64,000 nt of DNA from Lachnospiraceae bacterium (GTDB lineage: Bacteria > Bacillota > Clostridia > Lachnospirales > Lachnospiraceae): positions 70,533-134,532 of the forward strand of contig JAJQDE010000061.1 in NCBI GenBank assembly GCA_021202335.1, read 5' to 3'. Made by a program: the position numbers and the translations under genes. A model generated the notes under the pieces. That model did no database searches and was not told the DNA's origin. It saw only the letters and a list, made by a program, of their open reading frames with translations. Below, in pieces: positions 5,260 to 17,794 of this stretch. How positions within the stretch are numbered: position 1 is the stretch's first letter; every line of letters starts with the position of its first letter.

Positions 5260-6036
5260 ATGCAGGAAATGTTAGTGTCCGTGATTACCCCGTGCTATAA
5301 CAGCGGCAGTACCATAGAAAAAAACCTGGAGTGTATCGAAAACCAGACCTACAAAAATTTGGAATATATTATCATCGACGGCGGCTCCACGGACGGCACA
5401 CTCGAAATCATAGAGCGGCACAGGAGCAGACTCCCGGAGAATTTAAAGCTTGTGTCGGAGAAGGACAAAGGCATTTATGACGCCATGAACAAGGGAGTGC
5501 GGCTTGCGGGAGGGAAGCTTATCGGCATCGTAAACAGCGACGACTGGTATGAGGACGATACGGTCGGGCTGGCGGTTTCAAATTATCAGGGAAATAAGTA
5601 CGAGGTTGTCTATGGTATGCAGCGCAATATATTAAACGGCAGGGCGAAAACTACCTTTATACATTACCATGATTTTCTGACAGAGCAGATGATAACGCAT
5701 CCCACCTGCTTTGTGACTGCGGACACATACAGGGATTTGGGGCTTTTTGATACTAAGTACCGTTCGGCGGCGGATTACGATCTGATGCTGCGCTTTTACG
5801 AGAGCGGTAAGGTAGTGTTTACGCCTGTGATGAGGGTGATGTCAAATTTCAGGCTTGGCGGGATGTCAGGCAGCCAGACGGGAGTGCGGGAAAATGCCGC
5901 AATCCGATACCGGCATGGCTGCATGAGCAGGAGAAGATACCGGTTCGTGGTGGCAAAAAGCCGGCTCTACGAATGGACGCATAAAAAACGCCATGGTGTG
6001 CCGGCTTGCTCCATTAGTCACTCCCTGCGGTCATGA
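5260..6036 (+). CDS. GT2 family glycosyltransferase (WcaE-like)
   Basis: VSVITPCYN, IIDGGSTDGT, GIYDAMNKG, VNSDD, ADYDL, GGMS. Confidence 0.9.
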   Translation: MQEMLVSVITPCYNSGSTIEKNLECIENQTYKNLEYIIIDGGSTDGTLEIIERHRSRLPENLKLVSEKDKGIYDAMNKGVRLAGGKLIGIVNSDDWYEDDTVGLAVSNYQGNKYEVVYGMQRNILNGRAKTTFIHYHDFLTEQMITHPTCFVTADTYRDLGLFDTKYRSAADYDLMLRFYESGKVVFTPVMRVMSNFRLGGMSGSQTGVRENAAIRYRHGCMSRRRYRFVVAKSRLYEWTHKKRHGVPACSISHSLRS

Positions 6037-6053
6037 CATGGAGGCGAAATATG
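6014..6053. repeat. Dispersed ~40 bp element containing SD and start codon (copy 1)
   Basis: ttagtcactccctgcggtcatgacatggaggcgaaatatg is near-identical to 16007-16045. Confidence 0.65.
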
Positions 6054-10804: not shown

Positions 10805-11929
10805 ATGACAATTAAGTGCAATGTTTTGGACCGACAATTTCAGATGCACCAAAGCGAATATGAGGAGGCAGCCTTAAGGGTGCTCCGTTCGGGCTGGTAT
10901 GTGCTTGGAAACGAGGTCGCAGCGTTTGAGGAGGAATTTGCCGCATACACGGGGAGAAAATACTGCGTCGGGTTAAATTCCGGGCTTGACGCGCTTATTA
11001 TGTCCGTGCGCGCGCTGGGCATAGGCGAGGGCGATGAGGTCATCGTGCAGTCAAACACCTATATCGCGACAGTGCTTGGGATTACGGAAAATAAGGCGAC
11101 GCCCGTTTTCGTGGAGCCGGACGAATACTTTAACATGGATGCGGAAAAAATCGAACAGGCAATTACGCCAAAGACAAGGGCGATCATGGTTACGCATTTA
11201 TATGGGCAGGCAAGCAATATGGAACCGATTGCCCGGATTGCGAAAAAGCATCATTTAGAGCTGCTTGAGGACTGCGCGCAGTCGCACGGCGCGTGCTTTG
11301 AAGGCAAAATGACGGGAAGCTTTGGCATTTCCGGCTGCTTTAGCTTTTATCCGACCAAAAATCTCGGCGCCTTTGGCGACGCGGGCGCGGTGGTGACGGA
11401 TGATGAAGGGCTTGCGGATGAGCTTAGGATGATGAGAAATTACGGCAGCCGCGTCAGATATTATAATGAAATAGAAGGACTTAACTCAAGACTCGACGAG
11501 CTGCAGGCGGCATTTCTGAGGATAAAGCTGAAATATGTTGACAATCTTAATAGTGAGAGAAGGGCTCTTGCTTTGGCATACGATACCGGCATCAAAAATG
11601 ATAAAATTGCCCTGCCGAAGGTTCGCCCCGGCGCGGACAATATTTGGCATCAGTATGTGGTACGCTGTGGGGAGCGTGACAGATTGCGGCAGTATTTACA
11701 GGAGAACGATATCCAAACGCAGATTCATTATCCTATACCGCCGCATCTTGCCGAATGTTATCGGCATTTAGGGTATAAAAAGGGCGATTTTCCTATAGCG
11801 GAGCGCTATGCGGATGAGGTCTTAAGCCTTCCCATCTACACGGGCATGACAGGGGCGGAGCAGGACTATGTTATTGAAAAATTAAATAGTTTCAGCTTAA
11901 TGAATTCTGAAAGGGAGAATTGTGTATGA
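10805..11929 (+). CDS. fdtB: DegT/DnrJ/EryC1 PLP aminotransferase, dTDP-3-amino-3,6-dideoxyhexose transaminase type
   Basis: LEDCAQSHGA, SFYPTKNLGAFGDAG, GLNSRLDELQAA, LSLPIY. Next to a cupin 3,4-ketoisomerase. fdtB versus qdtB cannot be resolved from sequence. Confidence 0.85.
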   Translation: MTIKCNVLDRQFQMHQSEYEEAALRVLRSGWYVLGNEVAAFEEEFAAYTGRKYCVGLNSGLDALIMSVRALGIGEGDEVIVQSNTYIATVLGITENKATPVFVEPDEYFNMDAEKIEQAITPKTRAIMVTHLYGQASNMEPIARIAKKHHLELLEDCAQSHGACFEGKMTGSFGISGCFSFYPTKNLGAFGDAGAVVTDDEGLADELRMMRNYGSRVRYYNEIEGLNSRLDELQAAFLRIKLKYVDNLNSERRALALAYDTGIKNDKIALPKVRPGADNIWHQYVVRCGERDRLRQYLQENDIQTQIHYPIPPHLAECYRHLGYKKGDFPIAERYADEVLSLPIYTGMTGAEQDYVIEKLNSFSLMNSERENCV

Positions 11930-12354
11930 ATATAGAGGATTGCAGGCTGCTGGAGTTTCCGCAGAGGGGCGATGAGCGGGGGCATCTTGTTGCAATAGAG
12001 GGCTGCGGGGATATTCCCTTTGAAATCAAGCGCGTATTTTATATTTATGGTTCCGACAGGAACGTTGTGCGCGGGCGGCACGCGAATAACAATTCGGAGT
12101 TCGTGCTGATAAACGTGTCCGGTACGTCAAAGGTAAAGGTCGACGACGGCAGAAAAACTAAAATATTTGATTTGGACAGACCGCATATCGGCATCTATCT
12201 GCCGCGGCTCGTTTGGAAGGATATGTATGATTTTTCAGAGGATTCCGTGCTGCTTTGCCTGTCAAGCGAGCATTACGACGCCGGGGAGTATATCAGAGAT
12301 TACGACAGCTACCTGGAGATTATGAAAAAGCATTGGGAGGAAGAAAATGCTTAG
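11926..12354 (+). CDS. fdtA: dTDP-4-keto-6-deoxyhexose 3,4-ketoisomerase (FdtA/QdtA cupin)
   Basis: DERGHLVAIE, IPFEIKRVFYIY, RGRHA, LLCLSSEHYD..EYIRDY. ATGA overlap. Confidence 0.88.
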   Translation: MNIEDCRLLEFPQRGDERGHLVAIEGCGDIPFEIKRVFYIYGSDRNVVRGRHANNNSEFVLINVSGTSKVKVDDGRKTKIFDLDRPHIGIYLPRLVWKDMYDFSEDSVLLCLSSEHYDAGEYIRDYDSYLEIMKKHWEEENA

Positions 12355-12835
12355 ACGGCTTGAGGAAAAGGATGCGCCGCTGATGCTGGAGTGGATGTAC
12401 GACAGCGAAATCAATTGCAATTTTAGAGCGGATTTTGCCTCTGCCACATTGGAGAGCGCAAAAGAATTTATACGCGGCAGTTTTACTGATAAAGACATGA
12501 ACTTTGCTTTTGTTGATGAAAACGACGAGTACATGGGGACAATAAGCTTAAAGAATATTTCATATGAGGATAGCAGCGCCGAGTATGCGGTAGTCGCAAG
12601 GAAAAAGGCGCAGGGCACGGGAGCTGCGATGAGGGCGACAAAGGAGCTTCTTAATTATGCCTTTGAGAAACTTAAGCTCCACAAGGTATACCTAAACGTG
12701 CTCGAGGAAAATGTGAGGGCGCAGAGGCTGTATGAAAAGTGTGGCTTTGTCTGCGAAGGAAGCGCTGTCGACGCGGTGAAAATAAAGGGAGTGTATAGGA
12801 CGCTTAAGTGGTACGGCATAATAAATGAAAGATGA
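12347..12835 (+). CDS. GNAT N-acyltransferase (PseH/RimL-like), probable sugar N-acyltransferase
   Basis: GNAT motifs AQGTGAA, VYLNVLEENVRAQRLYEKCGF. Overlaps fdtA. Confidence 0.75.
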   Translation: MLRRLEEKDAPLMLEWMYDSEINCNFRADFASATLESAKEFIRGSFTDKDMNFAFVDENDEYMGTISLKNISYEDSSAEYAVVARKKAQGTGAAMRATKELLNYAFEKLKLHKVYLNVLEENVRAQRLYEKCGFVCEGSAVDAVKIKGVYRTLKWYGIINER

Positions 12836-12839
12836 AGCT

Positions 12840-12939
12840 CTGATGAAAAAAGTCAGATGCAATGATAAAGAAAAGCAGTGAAAGAAAAGGAAAGGAAACC
12901 GGAATATGACAGCGGAAGAAGTGACTGACCGGATTGCAG
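12840..12939 (+). repeat. ~100 bp imperfect direct repeat, copy 1
   Basis: Shares identical 15 bp (aaagaaaagcagtga) and 27 bp (atatgacagcggaagaagtgactgacc) blocks with 15045-15147, both at an offset of 2208 bp. Confidence 0.9.
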
Positions 12940-13022
12940 AGATATGCGGGCAAAATTCGGTGGAGGAGGCCTGGTTATTCGGCTCGTGCGCAATCGGGAT
13001 TTTTCGGATTCCTTTGTGCTGA
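12906..13022 (+). pseudogene. Truncated minimal nucleotidyltransferase (MNT, HI0073-type antitoxin) remnant
   Basis: Manual translation MTAEEVTDRIAEICGQNSVEEAWLFGSCAIGIFRIPLC* holds the MNT LFGSxAxG motif and stops after 38 codons. Confidence 0.7.
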
Positions 13023-13336
13023 GTGGGACAAGTGCAAAATTTTGCATAACGTTTGAATTGGCATGGAAGGTCATGAAGGATATATTGGTGCAGTATTATG
13101 CGATTACGGGGTTTGTGACGGGTTCCCCCAAGGAGGTATTAAAACAGTCTTTTAAGACATATCTGATAACGGACGGCAGATGGCTTGATATGCTGAGGGT
13201 CAGAAATGAACTGTCGCATGATTATGATGATGCGGTTATCAGAGCTCATTGCGGGAATATTATTGGTATATATTCGGATTTATTTACAGACTTGGAAGAA
13301 AGAGTTGATAAATTATTGAGCAATCCCGCCGGGTGA
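12944..13336 (+). CDS. HEPN/HI0074-family nucleotidyltransferase substrate-binding protein, N-terminally deleted/chimeric
   Basis: FCITFELAWKVMKDIL, GSPKEVLK, WLDMLRVRNELSHDYD (R-x4-H). The first ~20 codons are an alternative frame of the MNT remnant. Confidence 0.75.
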   Translation: MRAKFGGGGLVIRLVRNRDFSDSFVLSGTSAKFCITFELAWKVMKDILVQYYAITGFVTGSPKEVLKQSFKTYLITDGRWLDMLRVRNELSHDYDDAVIRAHCGNIIGIYSDLFTDLEERVDKLLSNPAG

Positions 13337-13381
13337 ATTGACCCGATTTTGAATATGTAAAACAAGGGGGCTGGAACAGGG

Positions 13382-15070
13382 ATGAAACCGGCTGCATTAG
13401 GTATAACGAAATTTGAGGATATCGTAAACGAAAATGTATTTTATGTTGACAAGACATATTTTATACGGGAGTGGCTTGCCGGCAGTGACCGCGTAACGCT
13501 TGTCACAAGACCGAGACGTTTCGGAAAGACACTGACATTAAATATGGTGGAAACCTTTTTTTCCAAAGCATATGAGGGCAGAAGCGACCTGTTCGAACGC
13601 TTTGATGTATGGAAGGACGAGAAGCTGCGCACTATGCAGGGGCAATATCCCGTGATAAACCTGAGCTTTGCTGATGTGAAGCAGGACAGCTACGAGAGCA
13701 TGACGGCAAAGATGAAACGGATTATTTCGACGTTGTATAAGCGGCATAGGTATCTGCTCGATTCGGACAAACTAAGTAAGGATGACAAGGCTGTATTTAC
13801 GGCGTATCTTGAGAGAAAAGCGACGGATGAGGAATGTATGGAATCACTCTTAAGGCTGTCGGAATATATGCATATTCATTTTGAAAAGCCGGTCATAATT
13901 TTGATGGACGAATACGACACGCCAATGCTCGAGGCATACACGGCAGGCTATTGGGATAAGGCAATCGTCTACATCCGCAGGATGTTTCACGCCACCTACA
14001 AGGATAATCCAAACCTTTTCAGAGGTCTAATGACGGGAATTACAAGAATAACGCAGGAATCCGTATTTTCTGATTTGAATAACGTTGCGGTAGTGACGAC
14101 TACTACCGAGCTTTTTGAAACGAGCTTTGGGTTTACTGAGGATGAAGTCCATGATGCGTTAAGAGAGTATGGGTTGTATGAGAAAAAGGATGAAGTCAGA
14201 CGGTGGTATGACGGCTTTAGGTTTGGCAGGAGGTCTGATATATACAATCCGTGGTCTATAATAAATTTCCTGAAATTTGGGAAATTTGAGCCATATTGGA
14301 TGAACACAAGTGGGAATGGACTGGTAGGAAAGCTTTTGCGCGAAGGTTCGGTTGATGTTAAGAATGATTTTGAAAATCTCCTTAACGGAGGGACAATCTG
14401 CTCCGAGATAGATGAGGCGATAACCTATGCGGAGCTTTCGGGGGCTTCAAAATCCATATGGAGTTGGCTTGTTACGACGGGCTATATCAAAATAGTGTCT
14501 GAGCAGACACCGTGCTATGAGCTTGCGCTCACAAATTATGAGGTGCGGCTTGCTTTTGCAAAGCTTGTAAAAAAGTGGTTTGATGGGAGCTATGACAATT
14601 ATAAGGGGCTTATGCGCAAGCTTTTGGAGGGTGATTTGGAAAGCCTGCAGTATTATATGGAAAAGGTGACGCGGCAGACCTTCAGTTTTTTCGACGTTGG
14701 AAACGAATCGACGGAAACGGAGAGGACAGAGCAGTTTTATCACGGTTTTACGCTTGGACTGATAGCTGATTTAAACAATACGCATGTCGTTACCTCAAAC
14801 CGTGAGAGCGGTTTCGGAAGATACGATGTGTGCATAGAGCCGAATGACGTGTCTAAGGACGGTATTATTATAGAATTTAAGATATTTGACCCCAAAAAGG
14901 AAAAGACGCTTGAGGAAACGGCGCGCCGTGCGTTAAAGCAGATAGAGGACAGAAAATATGAAACGGCGCTTAAAGCTAAAGGGATAAAGACTGTGCGCAG
15001 ATACGGTTTTGCTTTTAAGGGTAAGGAAGTGCTTATAATGGAGGCTGATGAAGAAAAACGTCAGATATAA
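13382..15070 (+). CDS. AAA-ATPase-like / PD-(D/E)XK nuclease (PDDEXK_9) protein
   Basis: YVDKT, Walker A RPRRFGKT, Walker B ILMDEYD, YNPWS, YWMNTSGN, EQFYHGF, SNRESGFGRYD, IIIEFK, ALKQI. Confidence 0.9.
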   Translation: MKPAALGITKFEDIVNENVFYVDKTYFIREWLAGSDRVTLVTRPRRFGKTLTLNMVETFFSKAYEGRSDLFERFDVWKDEKLRTMQGQYPVINLSFADVKQDSYESMTAKMKRIISTLYKRHRYLLDSDKLSKDDKAVFTAYLERKATDEECMESLLRLSEYMHIHFEKPVIILMDEYDTPMLEAYTAGYWDKAIVYIRRMFHATYKDNPNLFRGLMTGITRITQESVFSDLNNVAVVTTTTELFETSFGFTEDEVHDALREYGLYEKKDEVRRWYDGFRFGRRSDIYNPWSIINFLKFGKFEPYWMNTSGNGLVGKLLREGSVDVKNDFENLLNGGTICSEIDEAITYAELSGASKSIWSWLVTTGYIKIVSEQTPCYELALTNYEVRLAFAKLVKKWFDGSYDNYKGLMRKLLEGDLESLQYYMEKVTRQTFSFFDVGNESTETERTEQFYHGFTLGLIADLNNTHVVTSNRESGFGRYDVCIEPNDVSKDGIIIEFKIFDPKKEKTLEETARRALKQIEDRKYETALKAKGIKTVRRYGFAFKGKEVLIMEADEEKRQI

Positions 15071-15147
15071 TGAGAAAGAAAAGCAGTGAGGGAAAATGAA
15101 AGGAACTCGGGATATGACAGCGGAAGAAGTGACTGACCAGATTGCAG
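15045..15147 (+). repeat. ~100 bp imperfect direct repeat, copy 2 (includes second MNT-start remnant MTAEEVTDQIAG..., 15114-15170)
   Basis: Direct comparison with 12840-12939. Confidence 0.9.
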
Positions 15148-15176
15148 GAATGTATGACAATGGAGTATAAGAGGAA

Positions 15177-16001
15177 TTGAGGAAATATATTAAAAAAATA
15201 ATAAATCTCCCTAAAAGAATATATCGCGGCATAGAGGGCAGCAGGTACCGCAGGGGAAAATATCGAAACAGCATATCAGTGCTTTCGGCGTCGCAAACGA
15301 TTGATAAGCTTTTGGAAGCGCAGTGCAGCTTCTGCAGGTTTGGCGATGGGGAAATTGCGGTTATGAGAGGAGAAGGGATAGCCTTTCAAAAGGCGGACAG
15401 AGGGCTTGGCGAGCGCCTTTTGGAAATCCTTCAGTCCGAGGATGAGGGGCTTCTTGTGGGGATAAATTATTTTTATCTGAACCCCGTGACAGGAGTAAAC
15501 GGATTTACCCGGAATTTTTTGAACTGTCTTCAGATGCAGCGGAGATTTTTGATAAAAAACTGCAGTAAAAAGAGAACCTATATTGACGCTGCGATTACGC
15601 AAATGTATCAAAACTATAACGAATATGATTTTGACGCTCATTTTAAAAGGCTCCAAAAGCTTTTTGAAGGCCAAAAGGTTGTTCTTATCTGCGGCGAAAA
15701 CGTTCTGAGTGACATCAGATATAATGCGCTTGACGTTTGCAAACAGATCCAATACATTTACGGACCGTCAAGGGATGCATATGACCGGCATGATGAACTG
15801 TTAAAAAAAGCGCTTGAAACGGACAAGGATTTTATCGTCTGCGTTATACTCGGACCTGAGGCAAAGGTCTTGGTTTATGATTTGTTTAAGCATAACAGAA
15901 TTGCCTGGGATATCGGGCACTATTTGAAGGATTACGATTCATACATGCGGCAGCAGCCGCGGACGGATGCCGCAATAGAGCAGTTTTTTAAGCCCGATTA
16001 A
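15177..16001 (+). CDS. GT-D fold (DUF1792) glycosyltransferase
   Basis: FCRFGDGE, VILGPEAKVLVYDL, AWDIGH motifs. TTG start. Confidence 0.8.
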   Translation: MRKYIKKIINLPKRIYRGIEGSRYRRGKYRNSISVLSASQTIDKLLEAQCSFCRFGDGEIAVMRGEGIAFQKADRGLGERLLEILQSEDEGLLVGINYFYLNPVTGVNGFTRNFLNCLQMQRRFLIKNCSKKRTYIDAAITQMYQNYNEYDFDAHFKRLQKLFEGQKVVLICGENVLSDIRYNALDVCKQIQYIYGPSRDAYDRHDELLKKALETDKDFIVCVILGPEAKVLVYDLFKHNRIAWDIGHYLKDYDSYMRQQPRTDAAIEQFFKPD

Positions 16002-16006
16002 CAAAC

Positions 16007-16045
16007 TTAGCCGCTCCCTGCGGTCGTGACGTGAGGTGAACAATG
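16007..16045. repeat. Dispersed ~40 bp element containing SD and start codon (copy 2)
   Basis: ttagccgctccctgcggtcgtgacgtgaggtgaacaatg matches 6014-6053. Confidence 0.65.
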
Positions 16046-17794
16046 TATAAAAAGATAAAATATATTTTAGACAGAGAACAAAAAATAAAATTATTTGTCC
16101 TGCTTATTGTCATTCTTGTGGGAGCCCTTGTGGAGCTTTTGGGCGTATCTTCCATTATGCCGCTTATTGATGTGGCGACAAATCCTGACGCAGTGAATGA
16201 AAAATGGTATCTTGTGCTTGTAAGCGATACGTTTGGATTTAGTGAAGTCAAGCAGATTATCGCATTTCTTGCGCTTGTGCTGGTAGGCGTGTATATTGTC
16301 AAAAATCTGTATATCAGCATGATGTACAGTTTGCAGTACAGATTTATTTTTAATAATCAAAGACGGCTTGCCGTGAAAATGATGAATGCGTATATGCACC
16401 AAAACTATCTGTTTCATGTGTCGAGAAATGTCGCAGAGCTTCAGAGAAACGTTACTGAGGATGTAAACGGATTTTACACGGTAGTGTTGAACGCGATGCA
16501 GTTTATCGCGGAAGCGAGCGTATGCATTGTGCTTGTCGTATACCTGATGCGGACCGACGTCATGACTACGCTGGTGGTGGCGGCGCTGGTTTTTGTTTTT
16601 GCAGTGCTGGTGGGTATTGTGTTCAAAAAGACTCTCGTAAAAAAGGGAAAAGAGAACAGGAGCGTCAGCATAAGCCTTACCAAGTGGGTGCTGCAGTCAT
16701 TTTCGGGAATAAAAGAGATTAAGGTCATGAACAGAGAAGGCTTTTTTCTTCAAAATTACGAGAGTACATACCGCAGATTTACGGTATTGCAAAGGCAGCA
16801 GTCAATGCTTACGTTTATTCCACGCCCCATCATGGAAACGGTCTGCGTCGGCGGGCTTCTTCTGACAATGGCGGTTAAGGTATATGTGCTTGATACGGAT
16901 TTGACTGAATTTGTCCCTGCATTATCAGTGTTTGCGATAGCGGCGTTCAGAATGCTCCCGTCATTCAACAGGATTTCCGGTTACATGAGCGCAATGATGT
17001 TCAACAGACCGGCGATAGATGTGCTTTATGATGATCTGGTGGAAATAGAAAAGCTCAATGGAAAAGCTTATGAAGAAAATGGAGCTGCCAAGCCGCTTGT
17101 TATAAAAAACGGCATTTCGATTAAAAACGTATCCTTTCAATATCCTGCTTCGGACAGGCAGGTGCTTAAAAATCTTGATTTAGAGATTAAAAACAACACG
17201 TCCGTAGCCCTTATCGGCGCATCAGGAGCGGGAAAATCAACGCTTGCAGATGTGATACTGGGAGTTTTGGAGCCGCAAAGCGGAAGCATCCTTGTGGACG
17301 GAAAGGATATCAGCCAAAATATGGGCGCATGGCACGCAGCCATCGGCTATATTCCGCAGGCTATATATCTTATGGACGATACAATCAGGGCAAATGTCGC
17401 GTTTGGAATAGAGGAAGGTAAGATAGATGAAGCGATGCTTTGGAAAGCGCTGCATGAGGCACAGCTTGAGGAGTTTGTAAAGGACTTGCCGGACGGGCTT
17501 GATACGATGATAGGCGACAGGGGAGTCAAGCTTTCGGGAGGACAGCGCCAGCGCATCGGCATCGCCAGAGCCTTATATGGAAATCCGCAGGTGCTTATAC
17601 TTGACGAGGCGACATCGGCGCTTGATAATGAAACGGAAAAGGAAGTAATGGATGCGATAGACAGTCTTCACGGTACGAGAACACTGATTGTGATTGCCCA
17701 CAGACTCACCACGATAAGAAAATGCGACAAAATTTACGAAGTGGGAAACGGCACAATCCGTGCAAGGAGTAAGGAAGAGGTATTTGGGGGATAG
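16043..17794 (+). CDS. Half-type ABC transporter (TMD+NBD), PglK/Wzk-like lipid-linked glycan flippase
   Basis: Six TM helices, GASGAGKST, LSGGQRQRIGIARALY, ILDEATSALD, IAHRL. Located in a glycan locus. Confidence 0.85.
   Translation: MYKKIKYILDREQKIKLFVLLIVILVGALVELLGVSSIMPLIDVATNPDAVNEKWYLVLVSDTFGFSEVKQIIAFLALVLVGVYIVKNLYISMMYSLQYRFIFNNQRRLAVKMMNAYMHQNYLFHVSRNVAELQRNVTEDVNGFYTVVLNAMQFIAEASVCIVLVVYLMRTDVMTTLVVAALVFVFAVLVGIVFKKTLVKKGKENRSVSISLTKWVLQSFSGIKEIKVMNREGFFLQNYESTYRRFTVLQRQQSMLTFIPRPIMETVCVGGLLLTMAVKVYVLDTDLTEFVPALSVFAIAAFRMLPSFNRISGYMSAMMFNRPAIDVLYDDLVEIEKLNGKAYEENGAAKPLVIKNGISIKNVSFQYPASDRQVLKNLDLEIKNNTSVALIGASGAGKSTLADVILGVLEPQSGSILVDGKDISQNMGAWHAAIGYIPQAIYLMDDTIRANVAFGIEEGKIDEAMLWKALHEAQLEEFVKDLPDGLDTMIGDRGVKLSGGQRQRIGIARALYGNPQVLILDEATSALDNETEKEVMDAIDSLHGTRTLIVIAHRLTTIRKCDKIYEVGNGTIRARSKEEVFGG

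What the first reader, a model, noticed from the sequence alone, without database searches (positions are those of the whole stretch)
12840..15147. HEPN plus AAA/PD-(D/E)XK nuclease cassette bracketed by ~100 bp direct repeats inside the glycan operon
Seen: two imperfect repeats 2208 bp apart, each carrying an SD-like purine tract and the first codons of an MNT gene (MTAEEVTD[R/Q]IA). They enclose a HEPN gene and an AAA-ATPase/PDDEXK_9 gene unrelated to glycan synthesis. Inference: an excisable or amplifiable defence/TA cassette. RecA recombination between the repeats would delete 2.2 kb cleanly, and the repeat may be an insertion hotspot for conflict genes in a surface-antigen locus.
Basis: partly seen in the sequence, partly recalled or inferred. 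Interest (0 to 1): 0.65.

Follow-up and report, generated by a model that had tools for sequence, protein, structure and literature searches.

The report
Old duplication scar around inserted selfish genes
Two real 99-base repeats bracket a 2.3-kb block of foreign genes (a dead toxin-antitoxin pair and an intact ATPase-nuclease of unknown function) that landed inside a cell-wall sugar operon of a gut Lachnospiraceae bacterium. The repeats look like an old duplication scar, not the ends of a working mobile cassette.

Summary
The repeat is real: 12841-12939 and 15049-15147, 99 nt, 88% identical, 2208 nt apart. Its edges are sharp and these are the only two copies in the genome.

Each copy is the 65-nt leader plus the first 11 codons of an MNT antitoxin gene. 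The enclosed "HEPN gene" is not intact. A deletion of about 240 nt at a GCGCA microhomology fused MNT codon 29 to HEPN residue ~22, so the toxin-antitoxin pair is dead. The DUF1703 ATPase-nuclease (PF09820+PF08011) is intact and is one of at least 12 paralogues.

Four sister species have the GNAT and GT-D genes directly abutting, with no cassette and no repeat. The whole 12827-~15166 block, both repeats included, is therefore a lineage-specific insertion. The predicted "empty allele with one repeat" was not found.

Contigs from six metagenome samples (99.9% identical or better) show only the full structure wherever they reach it. The MNT-HEPN family and the DUF1703 family are not normally neighbours. 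Among 29 DUF1703 loci from other genera, flanking repeats are rare (1 of 29).

Best reading: a passive scar of an old unit duplication followed by deletion. The second copy may now serve as an 18-codon leader that ends 6 nt before GT-D's TTG start. Ordinary; low to moderate interest.

The parts
12347..12835 (+). GNAT N-acetyltransferase of the 3-amino-dideoxyhexose branch; left flank of the insertion. Its C-terminal tail is 11 residues shorter than in sister species.
   Evidence: Pfam PF13302, 1e-21. About 75% nt identity to G002, G017, G010 and G008. In G002 the protein ends ...WYGIINRLSSFKSEDKLE*; here it ends ...WYGIINER*.
12827..15166 (.). Lineage-specific insertion of about 2340 nt relative to four sister species; it contains both repeat copies.
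   Evidence: In G002, G017 and G010 the GNAT and GT-D matches are 31-32 nt apart and the GNAT stop overlaps the GT-D TTG. G008 is likewise adjacent. The native junction has no significant similarity to the repeat.
12841..12939 (+). Repeat copy R1: 65-nt leader with SD-like tract plus MNT codons 1-11, continuous with the rest of the MNT remnant.
   Evidence: The MNT N-terminus aligns across the R1 edge with full-length MNT homologues.
12906..13022 (+). MNT antitoxin remnant: residues 1-29 are homologous to MNT (…LFGS-CA), followed by 9 out-of-frame codons and a stop. The catalytic GSx10-13DxD motif is lost after GS.
   Evidence: Translation. Full-length homologues are 89-107 aa with LYGSRAKGT..RSDIDIAV.
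12987..12994 (+). Deletion junction fusing MNT codon 29 to HEPN residue ~22 at a GCGCA(A) microhomology (SRAK codons / ARE codons). About 240 nt are missing.
   Evidence: Read directly from the sequence against the L062 and L039 MNT-HEPN pairs.
12944..13336 (+). Chimeric ORF: about 15 codons of MNT DNA in another frame, then HEPN (HI0074/HepT-type) residues ~22 to the end. It keeps Rx4H (RNELSH) but lacks the N-terminal helix.
   Evidence: PF08780 profile 25-124 of 126. TIGR01987 positions 18-121. PDB 8yuf/8xdj matched from residue 24. Homologues match from query residue ~15.
13382..15070 (+). Intact DUF1703 ATPase-nuclease, 562 aa. It has Walker A RPRRFGKT, Walker B DEYD and nuclease residues D482...E498-x-K500 and Q520. 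Its last 7 codons lie in R2.
   Evidence: PF09820 at 145.5 bits and PF08011 at 63.4 bits. All family-invariant columns are kept. AF2 model pLDDT 84; weak fold matches to Avs3, NLRC4, RFC and the CinB nuclease. Homologues have variable tails after ...EVLI(ME).
15049..15147 (+). Repeat copy R2: an orphan copy of the MNT leader plus 11 codons, starting in the DUF1703 C-terminal tail.
15114..15170 (+). 18-codon mini-ORF (MTAEEVTDQIAGMYDNGV*) started by R2. Its stop lies 6 nt upstream of, and in frame with, the GT-D TTG start. Possible translational coupler.
   Evidence: Sequence. In sister species the GNAT stop overlaps the GT-D TTG. The function is inferred, not shown.
15177..16001 (+). GT-D fold glycosyltransferase with a conserved TTG start; right flank of the insertion.
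   Evidence: PF08759, 5e-53. The N-terminus (R/N)KYIKKI.N.PKRIYR is conserved with G002, G017 and G010.

Best explanation
The stretch is a lineage-specific insertion of about 2.34 kb between two translationally coupled genes (GNAT and GT-D) of a wall-glycan operon.

It holds two unrelated accessory modules.
1. A dead MntA/HepT-type (HI0073/HI0074) toxin-antitoxin pair. One microhomology deletion of about 240 nt removed the antitoxin's catalytic part and the toxin's first helix.
2. An intact stand-alone DUF1703 ATPase-nuclease. It is one of at least 12 paralogues in this genome. It is most likely an NTP-gated nuclease of the conflict or selfish kind, but its function has not been tested.

The two 99-nt repeats are two copies of the TA module's own 5' end: the leader, the SD, the ATG and 11 codons. 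They are a passive scar of an old duplication. Two routes would give the same result:
- an in-situ tandem duplication of the [MNT-HEPN-DUF1703] unit, followed by deletion of most of copy 2;
- import of slightly more than one unit of such an array.

Since then the copies have diverged by 12%. They are not target-site duplications, not att sites, and not evidence of a currently excisable element.

Inferred add-on: the orphan copy R2 may be retained because its SD, ATG and 18-codon ORF end 6 nt before GT-D's weak TTG start. This could replace the GNAT/GT-D coupling that the insertion destroyed.

Shown: the anatomy, the dead TA pair, the intact DUF1703 gene, the insertion relative to sister species, and the absence of the repeat from empty sites.
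Inferred: the duplication route, the nuclease function and the coupling role.
For: Repeat: real, exactly two copies, sharp edges.

R1 is contiguous with a genuine MNT gene: residues 1-29 align across the repeat edge with full-length MNTs. R2 is therefore the displaced copy, not a pre-existing target.

Empty sites: G002, G017, G010 and G008 lack both the cassette and the repeat.

Dead TA pair.

The two modules are independent:
- of 80 MNT-HEPN loci, only one has a distant DUF1703 neighbour;
- the closest DUF1703 homologues (72-67% identity) have no MNT-HEPN nearby.

Tandem duplication of DUF1703 units is common. Contig C41 has a pair that is 100% identical, C46 a pair at 93-99%, and L058 a tandem with a 54-nt shared 5' region. 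The literature reports expansions and recombination of the family (PMC6387759).

R2 begins in the variable tail, 8 codons after the conserved ...EVLIME end seen in the closest homologue.

No structure variants appear in contigs from six samples. There is no recombinase, no Rfam hit, no RNA fold and no PADLOC hit.
Against: - The exact route (in-situ duplication plus deletion, import of a fragment longer than one unit, or recombination with a resident stub) cannot be told apart. No intermediate allele or other R-bearing locus was found.
- All same-species data are from one near-clonal strain in one study, so presence/absence polymorphism is essentially untested.
- Reads could not be examined.
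- Substitutions are unevenly spread: 1 of 34 in the coding part against 11 of 65 in the leader. This hints at constraint or conversion rather than purely neutral decay.
- Earlier AI notes from other phyla report TA or ATPase-nuclease cassettes between long direct repeats, so a mobility-related origin is not excluded.
Confidence: 0.6

Rival explanations
1. The repeats are functional ends of an excisable or amplifiable cassette. RecA recombination between R1 and R2 deletes or amplifies the 2.2-kb unit, giving presence/absence or copy-number variation of conflict genes in a surface-antigen locus.
For: Direct repeats of 99 nt with a 27-nt perfect core exist. The cassette is absent from sister species. 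Tandem amplification of DUF1703 units does occur in this genome.
Against: The empty alleles have no repeat. The copies are 12% diverged, which implies long coexistence without deletion. Only the full structure is seen in contigs from six samples. The TA part is dead. In 29 DUF1703 loci from other genera, only one has any flanking repeat.
Confidence: 0.12
2. Campbell-type or homology-facilitated integration. A circular or linear [MNT-HEPN-DUF1703] fragment recombined with a resident MNT stub left by an earlier TA insertion, duplicating the shared 99 nt. On this view the 12% divergence reflects two different source lineages.
For: It explains why the repeat is cassette-derived and not target-derived. 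It also explains why the copies are diverged while the cassette's DUF1703 gene is intact.
Against: It needs two separate arrivals of related MNT modules at the same site. No stub-only allele or R-like sequence is seen anywhere else.
Confidence: 0.1
3. Insertion with long target duplication (Nobusato-type). On this view the 99 nt pre-existed once at the target and was duplicated when the cargo entered.
For: The geometry (a long imperfect direct repeat around a recombinase-less cargo) resembles cases reported for restriction-modification genes. It also resembles cases in earlier AI notes of this scan. One DUF1703 locus (L244) is bracketed by a 38-nt repeat of the upstream gene's tail.
Against: The defining feature fails here. 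Four empty sites lack the repeat, and the native junction shows no significant similarity to it. R1 is also an integral part of the cargo's own MNT gene.
Confidence: 0.03
4. This is not exclusive with the best explanation. R2 persists because it was exapted as a translation-initiation leader for GT-D after the insertion broke the GNAT/GT-D coupling.
For: The mini-ORF stop lies 6 nt before GT-D's TTG and in the same frame. GT-D's own SD is only about 2 nt from the TTG here, against 5 nt in G002. The SD-ATG-codon part of R is 97% conserved, against 83% for the rest. Another leader element about 40 nt long that supplies SD+ATG is spread over at least 15 genes of this genome.
Against: The evidence is purely positional, with no expression data. 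The conservation difference is only marginally significant.
Confidence: 0.3

Closest known systems
MntA-HepT / HI0073-HI0074 (type VII) MNT-HEPN toxin-antitoxin pairs (PF08780, TIGR01987; PDB 8xdj, 8yuf, 1jog)
   Same: The gene order, the overlapping bicistron layout, the MNT N-terminus (M..EEV....ICxxxxVxxxxLFGS) and a HEPN body with Rx4H are all recognisable. The HEPN part is up to 71% identical to Lachnospiraceae homologues.
   Different: Both genes are truncated by one deletion. The antitoxin lacks its DxD catalytic motif and C-terminal two thirds. The toxin lacks about 22 N-terminal residues and its own start. This is a remnant, not a working pair.
DUF1703 family (PF09820 AAA-ATPase_like + PF08011 PDDEXK_9; Knizewski et al. 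2007, PMC1913061; Cardinium expansion, PMC6387759)
   Same: Full architecture with the family-specific Walker A RPRRFGKT, DEYD and the D...ExK nuclease core. It is multi-copy, with tandem duplicates in the same genome.
   Different: Nothing essential differs; it is an ordinary member. What is particular here is that it sits co-directionally inside a glycan operon next to a TA remnant and is bracketed by the TA's duplicated 5' end.
Insertion with long target duplication (restriction-modification genes in Helicobacter, Nobusato et al. 2000; cited from my own knowledge and from earlier notes, not read here)
   Same: A long (about 100 nt) imperfect direct repeat flanks a recombinase-less selfish-gene insertion.
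   Different: Here the repeat is part of the cargo (the MNT 5' end) and is absent from empty sites, so it is not a target duplication.
Tandem-duplication junction scars and remnants of gene amplification
   Same: The periodic structure (one 2208-nt unit plus 99 nt), the sharp edges, and the many recent tandem DUF1703 duplicates in the same genome.
   Different: The second unit is almost wholly deleted and the copies are old (12% divergence).

Membership tests
MNT-HEPN (MntA-HepT, HI0073/HI0074) toxin-antitoxin | MNT with the complete nucleotidyltransferase motif GSx10-13[DE]x[DE] and a length of about 90-135 aa | tested here: not met
   The ORF stops after 38 codons. Only ...LFGS is left and the DxD motif is absent.
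MNT-HEPN (MntA-HepT, HI0073/HI0074) toxin-antitoxin | HEPN domain with the Rx4-6H motif | tested here: met
   RNELSH is present. PF08780 at 69 bits (cut-off 31.8) and TIGR01987 at 73.9 bits (cut-off 55.8).
MNT-HEPN (MntA-HepT, HI0073/HI0074) toxin-antitoxin | Full-length HEPN (about 133-139 aa) with its own start overlapping the MNT stop | tested here: not met
   Profile positions 1-24 are missing. PDB 8yuf is matched only from residue 24, and homologues match only from query residue ~15.
DUF1703 ATPase-nuclease | PF09820 and PF08011 both above the curated cut-offs in one polypeptide | tested here: met
   145.5 bits against 26.1, and 63.4 bits against 25.5.
DUF1703 ATPase-nuclease | Family-specific Walker A RPRRFGK[ST], Walker B DEYD and PD-(D/E)XK residues D...ExK plus Q | tested here: met
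   R43-T50, D176-D179, D482, E498, K500 and Q520 are invariant in 27 homologues and present here. The motifs are as defined in PMC1913061.
DUF1703 ATPase-nuclease | ATP-dependent nuclease activity or a defence phenotype | not testable with these tools
   No member has been characterised. There is no PADLOC or NCBIfam model.
Insertion with long target duplication | The repeat sequence is present once at the empty target site | tested here: not met
   Empty sites in G002, G017, G010 and G008 have a junction of about 32 nt with no significant similarity to R.
Integrative element with att sites (integrase-mediated) | A recombinase or integrase gene within or next to the element | tested here: not met
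   The only ORFs between the repeats are the TA remnant and DUF1703.
Integrative element with att sites (integrase-mediated) | Detectable excised or empty forms in populations | tested here: inconclusive
   Assembled contigs from six samples show only the full form.
Known anti-phage defence system (PADLOC-DB 2.0) | Match to a catalogued defence protein model | tested here: not met
   No families matched at E<=0.01 for either protein.

The most novel reading that the evidence does not exclude
DUF1703 genes, with or without TA companions, may be recombinase-less mobile units. On this reading they spread through a tandem or circular intermediate and arrive with terminally redundant ends of about 100 nt. 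The R1/R2 pair would be that footprint and could still mediate loss or amplification. Glycan operons would be preferred landing sites: four copies lie in glycan regions of this genome, and earlier AI notes report similar cases in other phyla.
Probability: 0.08. Interest if true: 0.6.

Novelty: new member of a known kind. Interest (0 to 1): 0.27.

Why it matters
The locus gives a clean before-and-after picture of selfish or conflict genes colonising a tightly coupled surface-glycan operon without inactivating it. In sister species the GNAT and GT-D genes abut or overlap; here 2.3 kb has been inserted between them. It also shows how such cargo decays, with the TA pair killed by a single microhomology deletion while the DUF1703 gene stays intact.

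It corrects the tempting reading that direct repeats mean a mobile cassette. Here the repeat belongs to the cargo, not to the target.

If the orphan repeat does act as a leader for GT-D, this would be a small example of exaptation of selfish-gene debris for operon repair.

None of this changes what is known about the families involved.

Tried and rejected
2. Strain-level variation: exact-protein look-ups for DUF1703, GNAT and GT-D found only one near-clonal strain in six samples of one study, all with the cassette.
3. Closer relatives or intermediate alleles: none in 40 relatives, 400 family genomes, genome contigs or metagenome contigs. The best GNAT match was 74% aa and the best HEPN match 71%.
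4. Source of R: there is no third copy in the genome and no R-like DNA in about 100 fetched loci.
5. Repeat as a relic of the target or of a former upstream DUF1703 3' end: no significant similarity and no gapped extension.
6. Flanking repeats as a general DUF1703 signature: 0 of 9 other own-genome loci once tandem paralogues are excluded, and 1 of 29 loci from other genera.
7. RNA element in R: no Rfam hit, and fold z-scores of -0.8 and +0.1.
8. Foreign composition: GC is 42-45%, not distinct from the flanks.
9. Plasmid or phage origin: only a HEPN hit at 72% on a Roseburia plasmid, plus distant DUF1703 hits in unannotated metagenomic 'phage' contigs.
10. Defence annotation: no PADLOC hit.
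11. Fold search: only weak STAND/AAA+ matches (Avs3, NLRC4, RFC) and CinB nuclease matches, with TM scores at or below 0.32.
12. Enrichment of DUF1703 in glycan loci of this genome: suggestive only, P=0.07.
Full report

The repeat finder returns one outstanding direct-repeat family in 11500-16500. It spans 12841-12939 and 15049-15147, 99 nt, 88% identical, 2208 nt apart. Searched against the whole 2.74-Mb assembly, the second copy scores E = 3.9e-29, and there is no third copy.

The edges are sharp. In the same register, identity is 17% in the 40 nt to the left and 31% in the 32 nt to the right, which is background. Gapped local alignment does not extend the repeat on either side.

Within the repeat, the 65-nt leader is 83% identical and the 34-nt coding part is 97% identical (33 of 34). 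Both copies carry a purine-rich SD-like tract, an ATG and MTAEEVTD[R/Q]IA.

**2. What lies between the repeats?**

The R1 ATG (12906) opens MTAEEVTDRIAEICGQNSVEEAWLFGSCA..., which stops after 38 codons. Its first 29 residues align with the N-termini of full-length MNT antitoxins from MNT-HEPN pairs. An example is MTVEEVIEKIIEICRRFSVREVYLYGSRA in L062. The alignment runs across the R1 right edge, so R1 is an integral part of a real MNT gene.

The ORF 12944-13336 is not an intact HEPN gene:
- it hits PF08780 only from profile position 25 of 126;
- it hits TIGR01987 from position 18;
- it matches the solved 139-aa HEPN toxins 8yuf and 8xdj from residue 24;
- it matches every one of more than 130 homologues only from its own residue ~15.

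Full-length pairs encode an MNT of 89-107 aa and a HEPN of 132-150 aa. The window therefore carries MNT(1-29) fused to HEPN(~22 to the end). The joint is at about 12987-12994, where the MNT SRAK codons and the HEPN ARE codons share GCGCA(A). About 240 nt are missing.

The antitoxin has lost its DxD catalytic motif. The toxin has lost its first helix and its own start, although RNELSH (Rx4H) survives. The pair is dead. This agrees with the separate first-reader note e1-5133945, and I checked it independently.

The third gene, 13382-15070, is an intact DUF1703 protein:
- PF09820 scores 145.5 bits and PF08011 scores 63.4 bits;
- it carries the family's odd Walker A (RPRRFGKT), DEYD, and D482, E498-x-K500 and Q520;
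- every column that is invariant in 27 homologues is kept, and the motifs match their definition in PMC1913061.

An AlphaFold model (pLDDT 84) gives only weak fold matches. The N-terminal two thirds resemble STAND/AAA+ switches (Avs3, NLRC4, RFC), and the C-terminus resembles the CinB PD-(D/E)XK nuclease.

No PADLOC, NCBIfam or solved-structure relative exists. The family is huge: at least 8000 hits at E<1e-50, with close hits in 57 of 151 sampled genera. It is functionally untested.

**3. Is the block an insertion?**

Yes. In same-genus species G002, G017 and G010, the GNAT and GT-D matches (about 75% nt identity) are 31-32 nt apart. The GNAT stop overlaps the GT-D TTG start. G008 is likewise adjacent.

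Homology to the window ends after the ...WYGIIN codon (12826) and resumes at the GT-D SD (about 15167). The insertion is thus about 2340 nt and contains both repeat copies plus 14 nt on the left and about 19 nt on the right.

The native junction has no significant similarity to the repeat (shuffle P of 0.12 or higher). The repeat is cargo-derived, not target-derived.

**4. Is there evidence of excision or variation?**

Exact-protein look-ups for DUF1703, GNAT and GT-D retrieve contigs from six samples of one study (SRR15221326, 27, 29, 34, 35, 36). All are at least 99.93% identical to the window, and all carry the full structure wherever the contig reaches it. No closer relatives exist in the genome or metagenome collections.

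The 12% divergence, with a longest perfect run of 27 nt, means the two copies have coexisted for a long time without recombining each other away.

**5. Are the modules one system?**

No.
- Among 80 loci with the closest HEPN homologues, only one (L088) has a distant (22%) DUF1703 gene downstream.
- The closest DUF1703 homologues (72-67% identity) sit in unrelated contexts, often in tandem with other AAA-ATPase_like genes.

**6. Where did the repeat come from?**

The structure is one 2208-nt unit plus 99 nt of a periodic sequence: [leader-MNT-HEPN-DUF1703][leader-MNT(1-11)]. R2 begins in the variable tail of DUF1703, 8 codons after the conserved ...EVLIME, which is where the closest homologue stops.

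Tandem duplication of DUF1703 units is frequent. Two copies on contig C41 are 100% identical, two on C46 are 93-99% identical, and L058 has a tandem pair with a 54-nt shared 5' region. The literature reports recombination among paralogues.

The simplest reading is an old duplication of the unit, either in situ or already present in the donor. The body of the second unit was then lost from MNT codon 12 onward.

Flanking repeats are not a general signature of the family. There are none at the nine other own-genome loci apart from those caused by tandem paralogues. Among 29 loci from other genera, one has a flanking repeat. That one, L244, is a 38-nt duplicate of the upstream gene's tail. It is of the target-derived kind reported in earlier AI notes, which is unlike the case here.

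**7. A possible present-day role for R2.**

In sister species, GT-D's weak TTG start is coupled to the GNAT stop. In the window the SD lies only about 2 nt from the TTG. The R2 mini-ORF (15114-15170, 18 codons) terminates 6 nt upstream and in the same frame. R2 may therefore supply translating ribosomes to GT-D.

This is an inference from position only. The better conservation of the SD-ATG-codon part of the repeat is only marginally significant.

**8. Context.**

Other DUF1703 paralogues of this genome also lie co-directionally inside glycan regions on contig C59:
- between a GT2 and a GT4 gene;
- between a GT4 gene and an NTP-transferase/aminotransferase gene;
- between a double GT2 gene and a phosphomannomutase/GtrA pair.

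One paralogue lies next to a ParE-like TA pair.

The genome has very large glycan regions, so the enrichment is only suggestive: 3 of 10 loci lie within 5 kb of a GT2 or GT1 hit, against 10% of the genome (P=0.07).

**9. Verdict.**

The 'excisable cassette or insertion hotspot defined by the repeat' part is not supported.

The locus is an ordinary, decaying insertion with an old duplication scar, involving known families.

Noticed in passing
window 6021-6052 and 16014-16045; also genome contigs C5, C9, C12, C14, C18, C26, C34, C38, C45, C57, C59 (x2), C63: An element of about 40 nt, ATTAGC[C/T]ACTCCCTGCGGTCGTGACATGAGGTGAAAAATG, occurs at least 15 times in the genome. In 14 of the 15 copies it ends in an SD plus an ATG that can open a reading frame (in the C14 copy the ATG is followed directly by a stop); in the window these are ATG 6050 and the ABC exporter ATG 16043. 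There is no Rfam hit for the 16014 copy. It looks like a dispersed leader or translation-initiation element.
   Followed up: partly
own genome C59:60193-61925, C59:65999-67678, C59:107379-109013: Three further DUF1703 paralogues (one split in two ORFs) lie co-directionally inside polysaccharide-biosynthesis gene runs (GT2, GT4, Wzx-type flippase, NTP-transferase, phosphomannomutase, GtrA). Enrichment over the genome background is only suggestive (P about 0.07).
   Followed up: partly
own genome C41:19647-23085 and C46:18026-21219: Very recent tandem duplicates of DUF1703 genes: 100% identity over 1445 nt on C41, next to an integrase fragment and running to the contig end, and 93-99% on C46. 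The copy number may be under-assembled.
   Followed up: partly
own genome C10:2516-4930: Another DUF1703 paralogue sits directly beside a ParE-like toxin / AbrB-like antitoxin pair and an RNase_H_2 exonuclease gene. This is a second TA-DUF1703 adjacency in the same genome.
   Followed up: no
L244 1166-1203 and 3185-3222 (G156:C78): In another Lachnospiraceae genus, a small HTH-like gene plus a DUF1703 gene are bracketed by a 38-nt, 95% direct repeat. The repeat is the 3' tail of the upstream gene (...EANPLYA[S/A]VKK[E/D]*). This is a target-derived 'duplicated gene tail', unlike the window's repeat.
   Followed up: partly
L088 76-2401 (Ruminococcus bicirculans contig): An MNT-HEPN-type HEPN gene is followed about 530 nt downstream by a distant (22% identity) DUF1703 gene, in the same order as in the window. 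It is the only such case among 80 HEPN loci.
   Followed up: no
window 12827-12835: The insertion replaced the last 12 codons of the GNAT gene (RLSSFKSEDKLE in G002) with ER-stop. It also removed the stop/start overlap with GT-D.
   Followed up: yes
window 13330-13345: A weak terminator-like hairpin (CGGGTGAATTGACCCG followed by ATTTTGAATA, only 5 of 10 T) overlaps the HEPN stop. It may be the TA module's own terminator, now inside the operon. Its effect on downstream expression is unknown.
   Followed up: no
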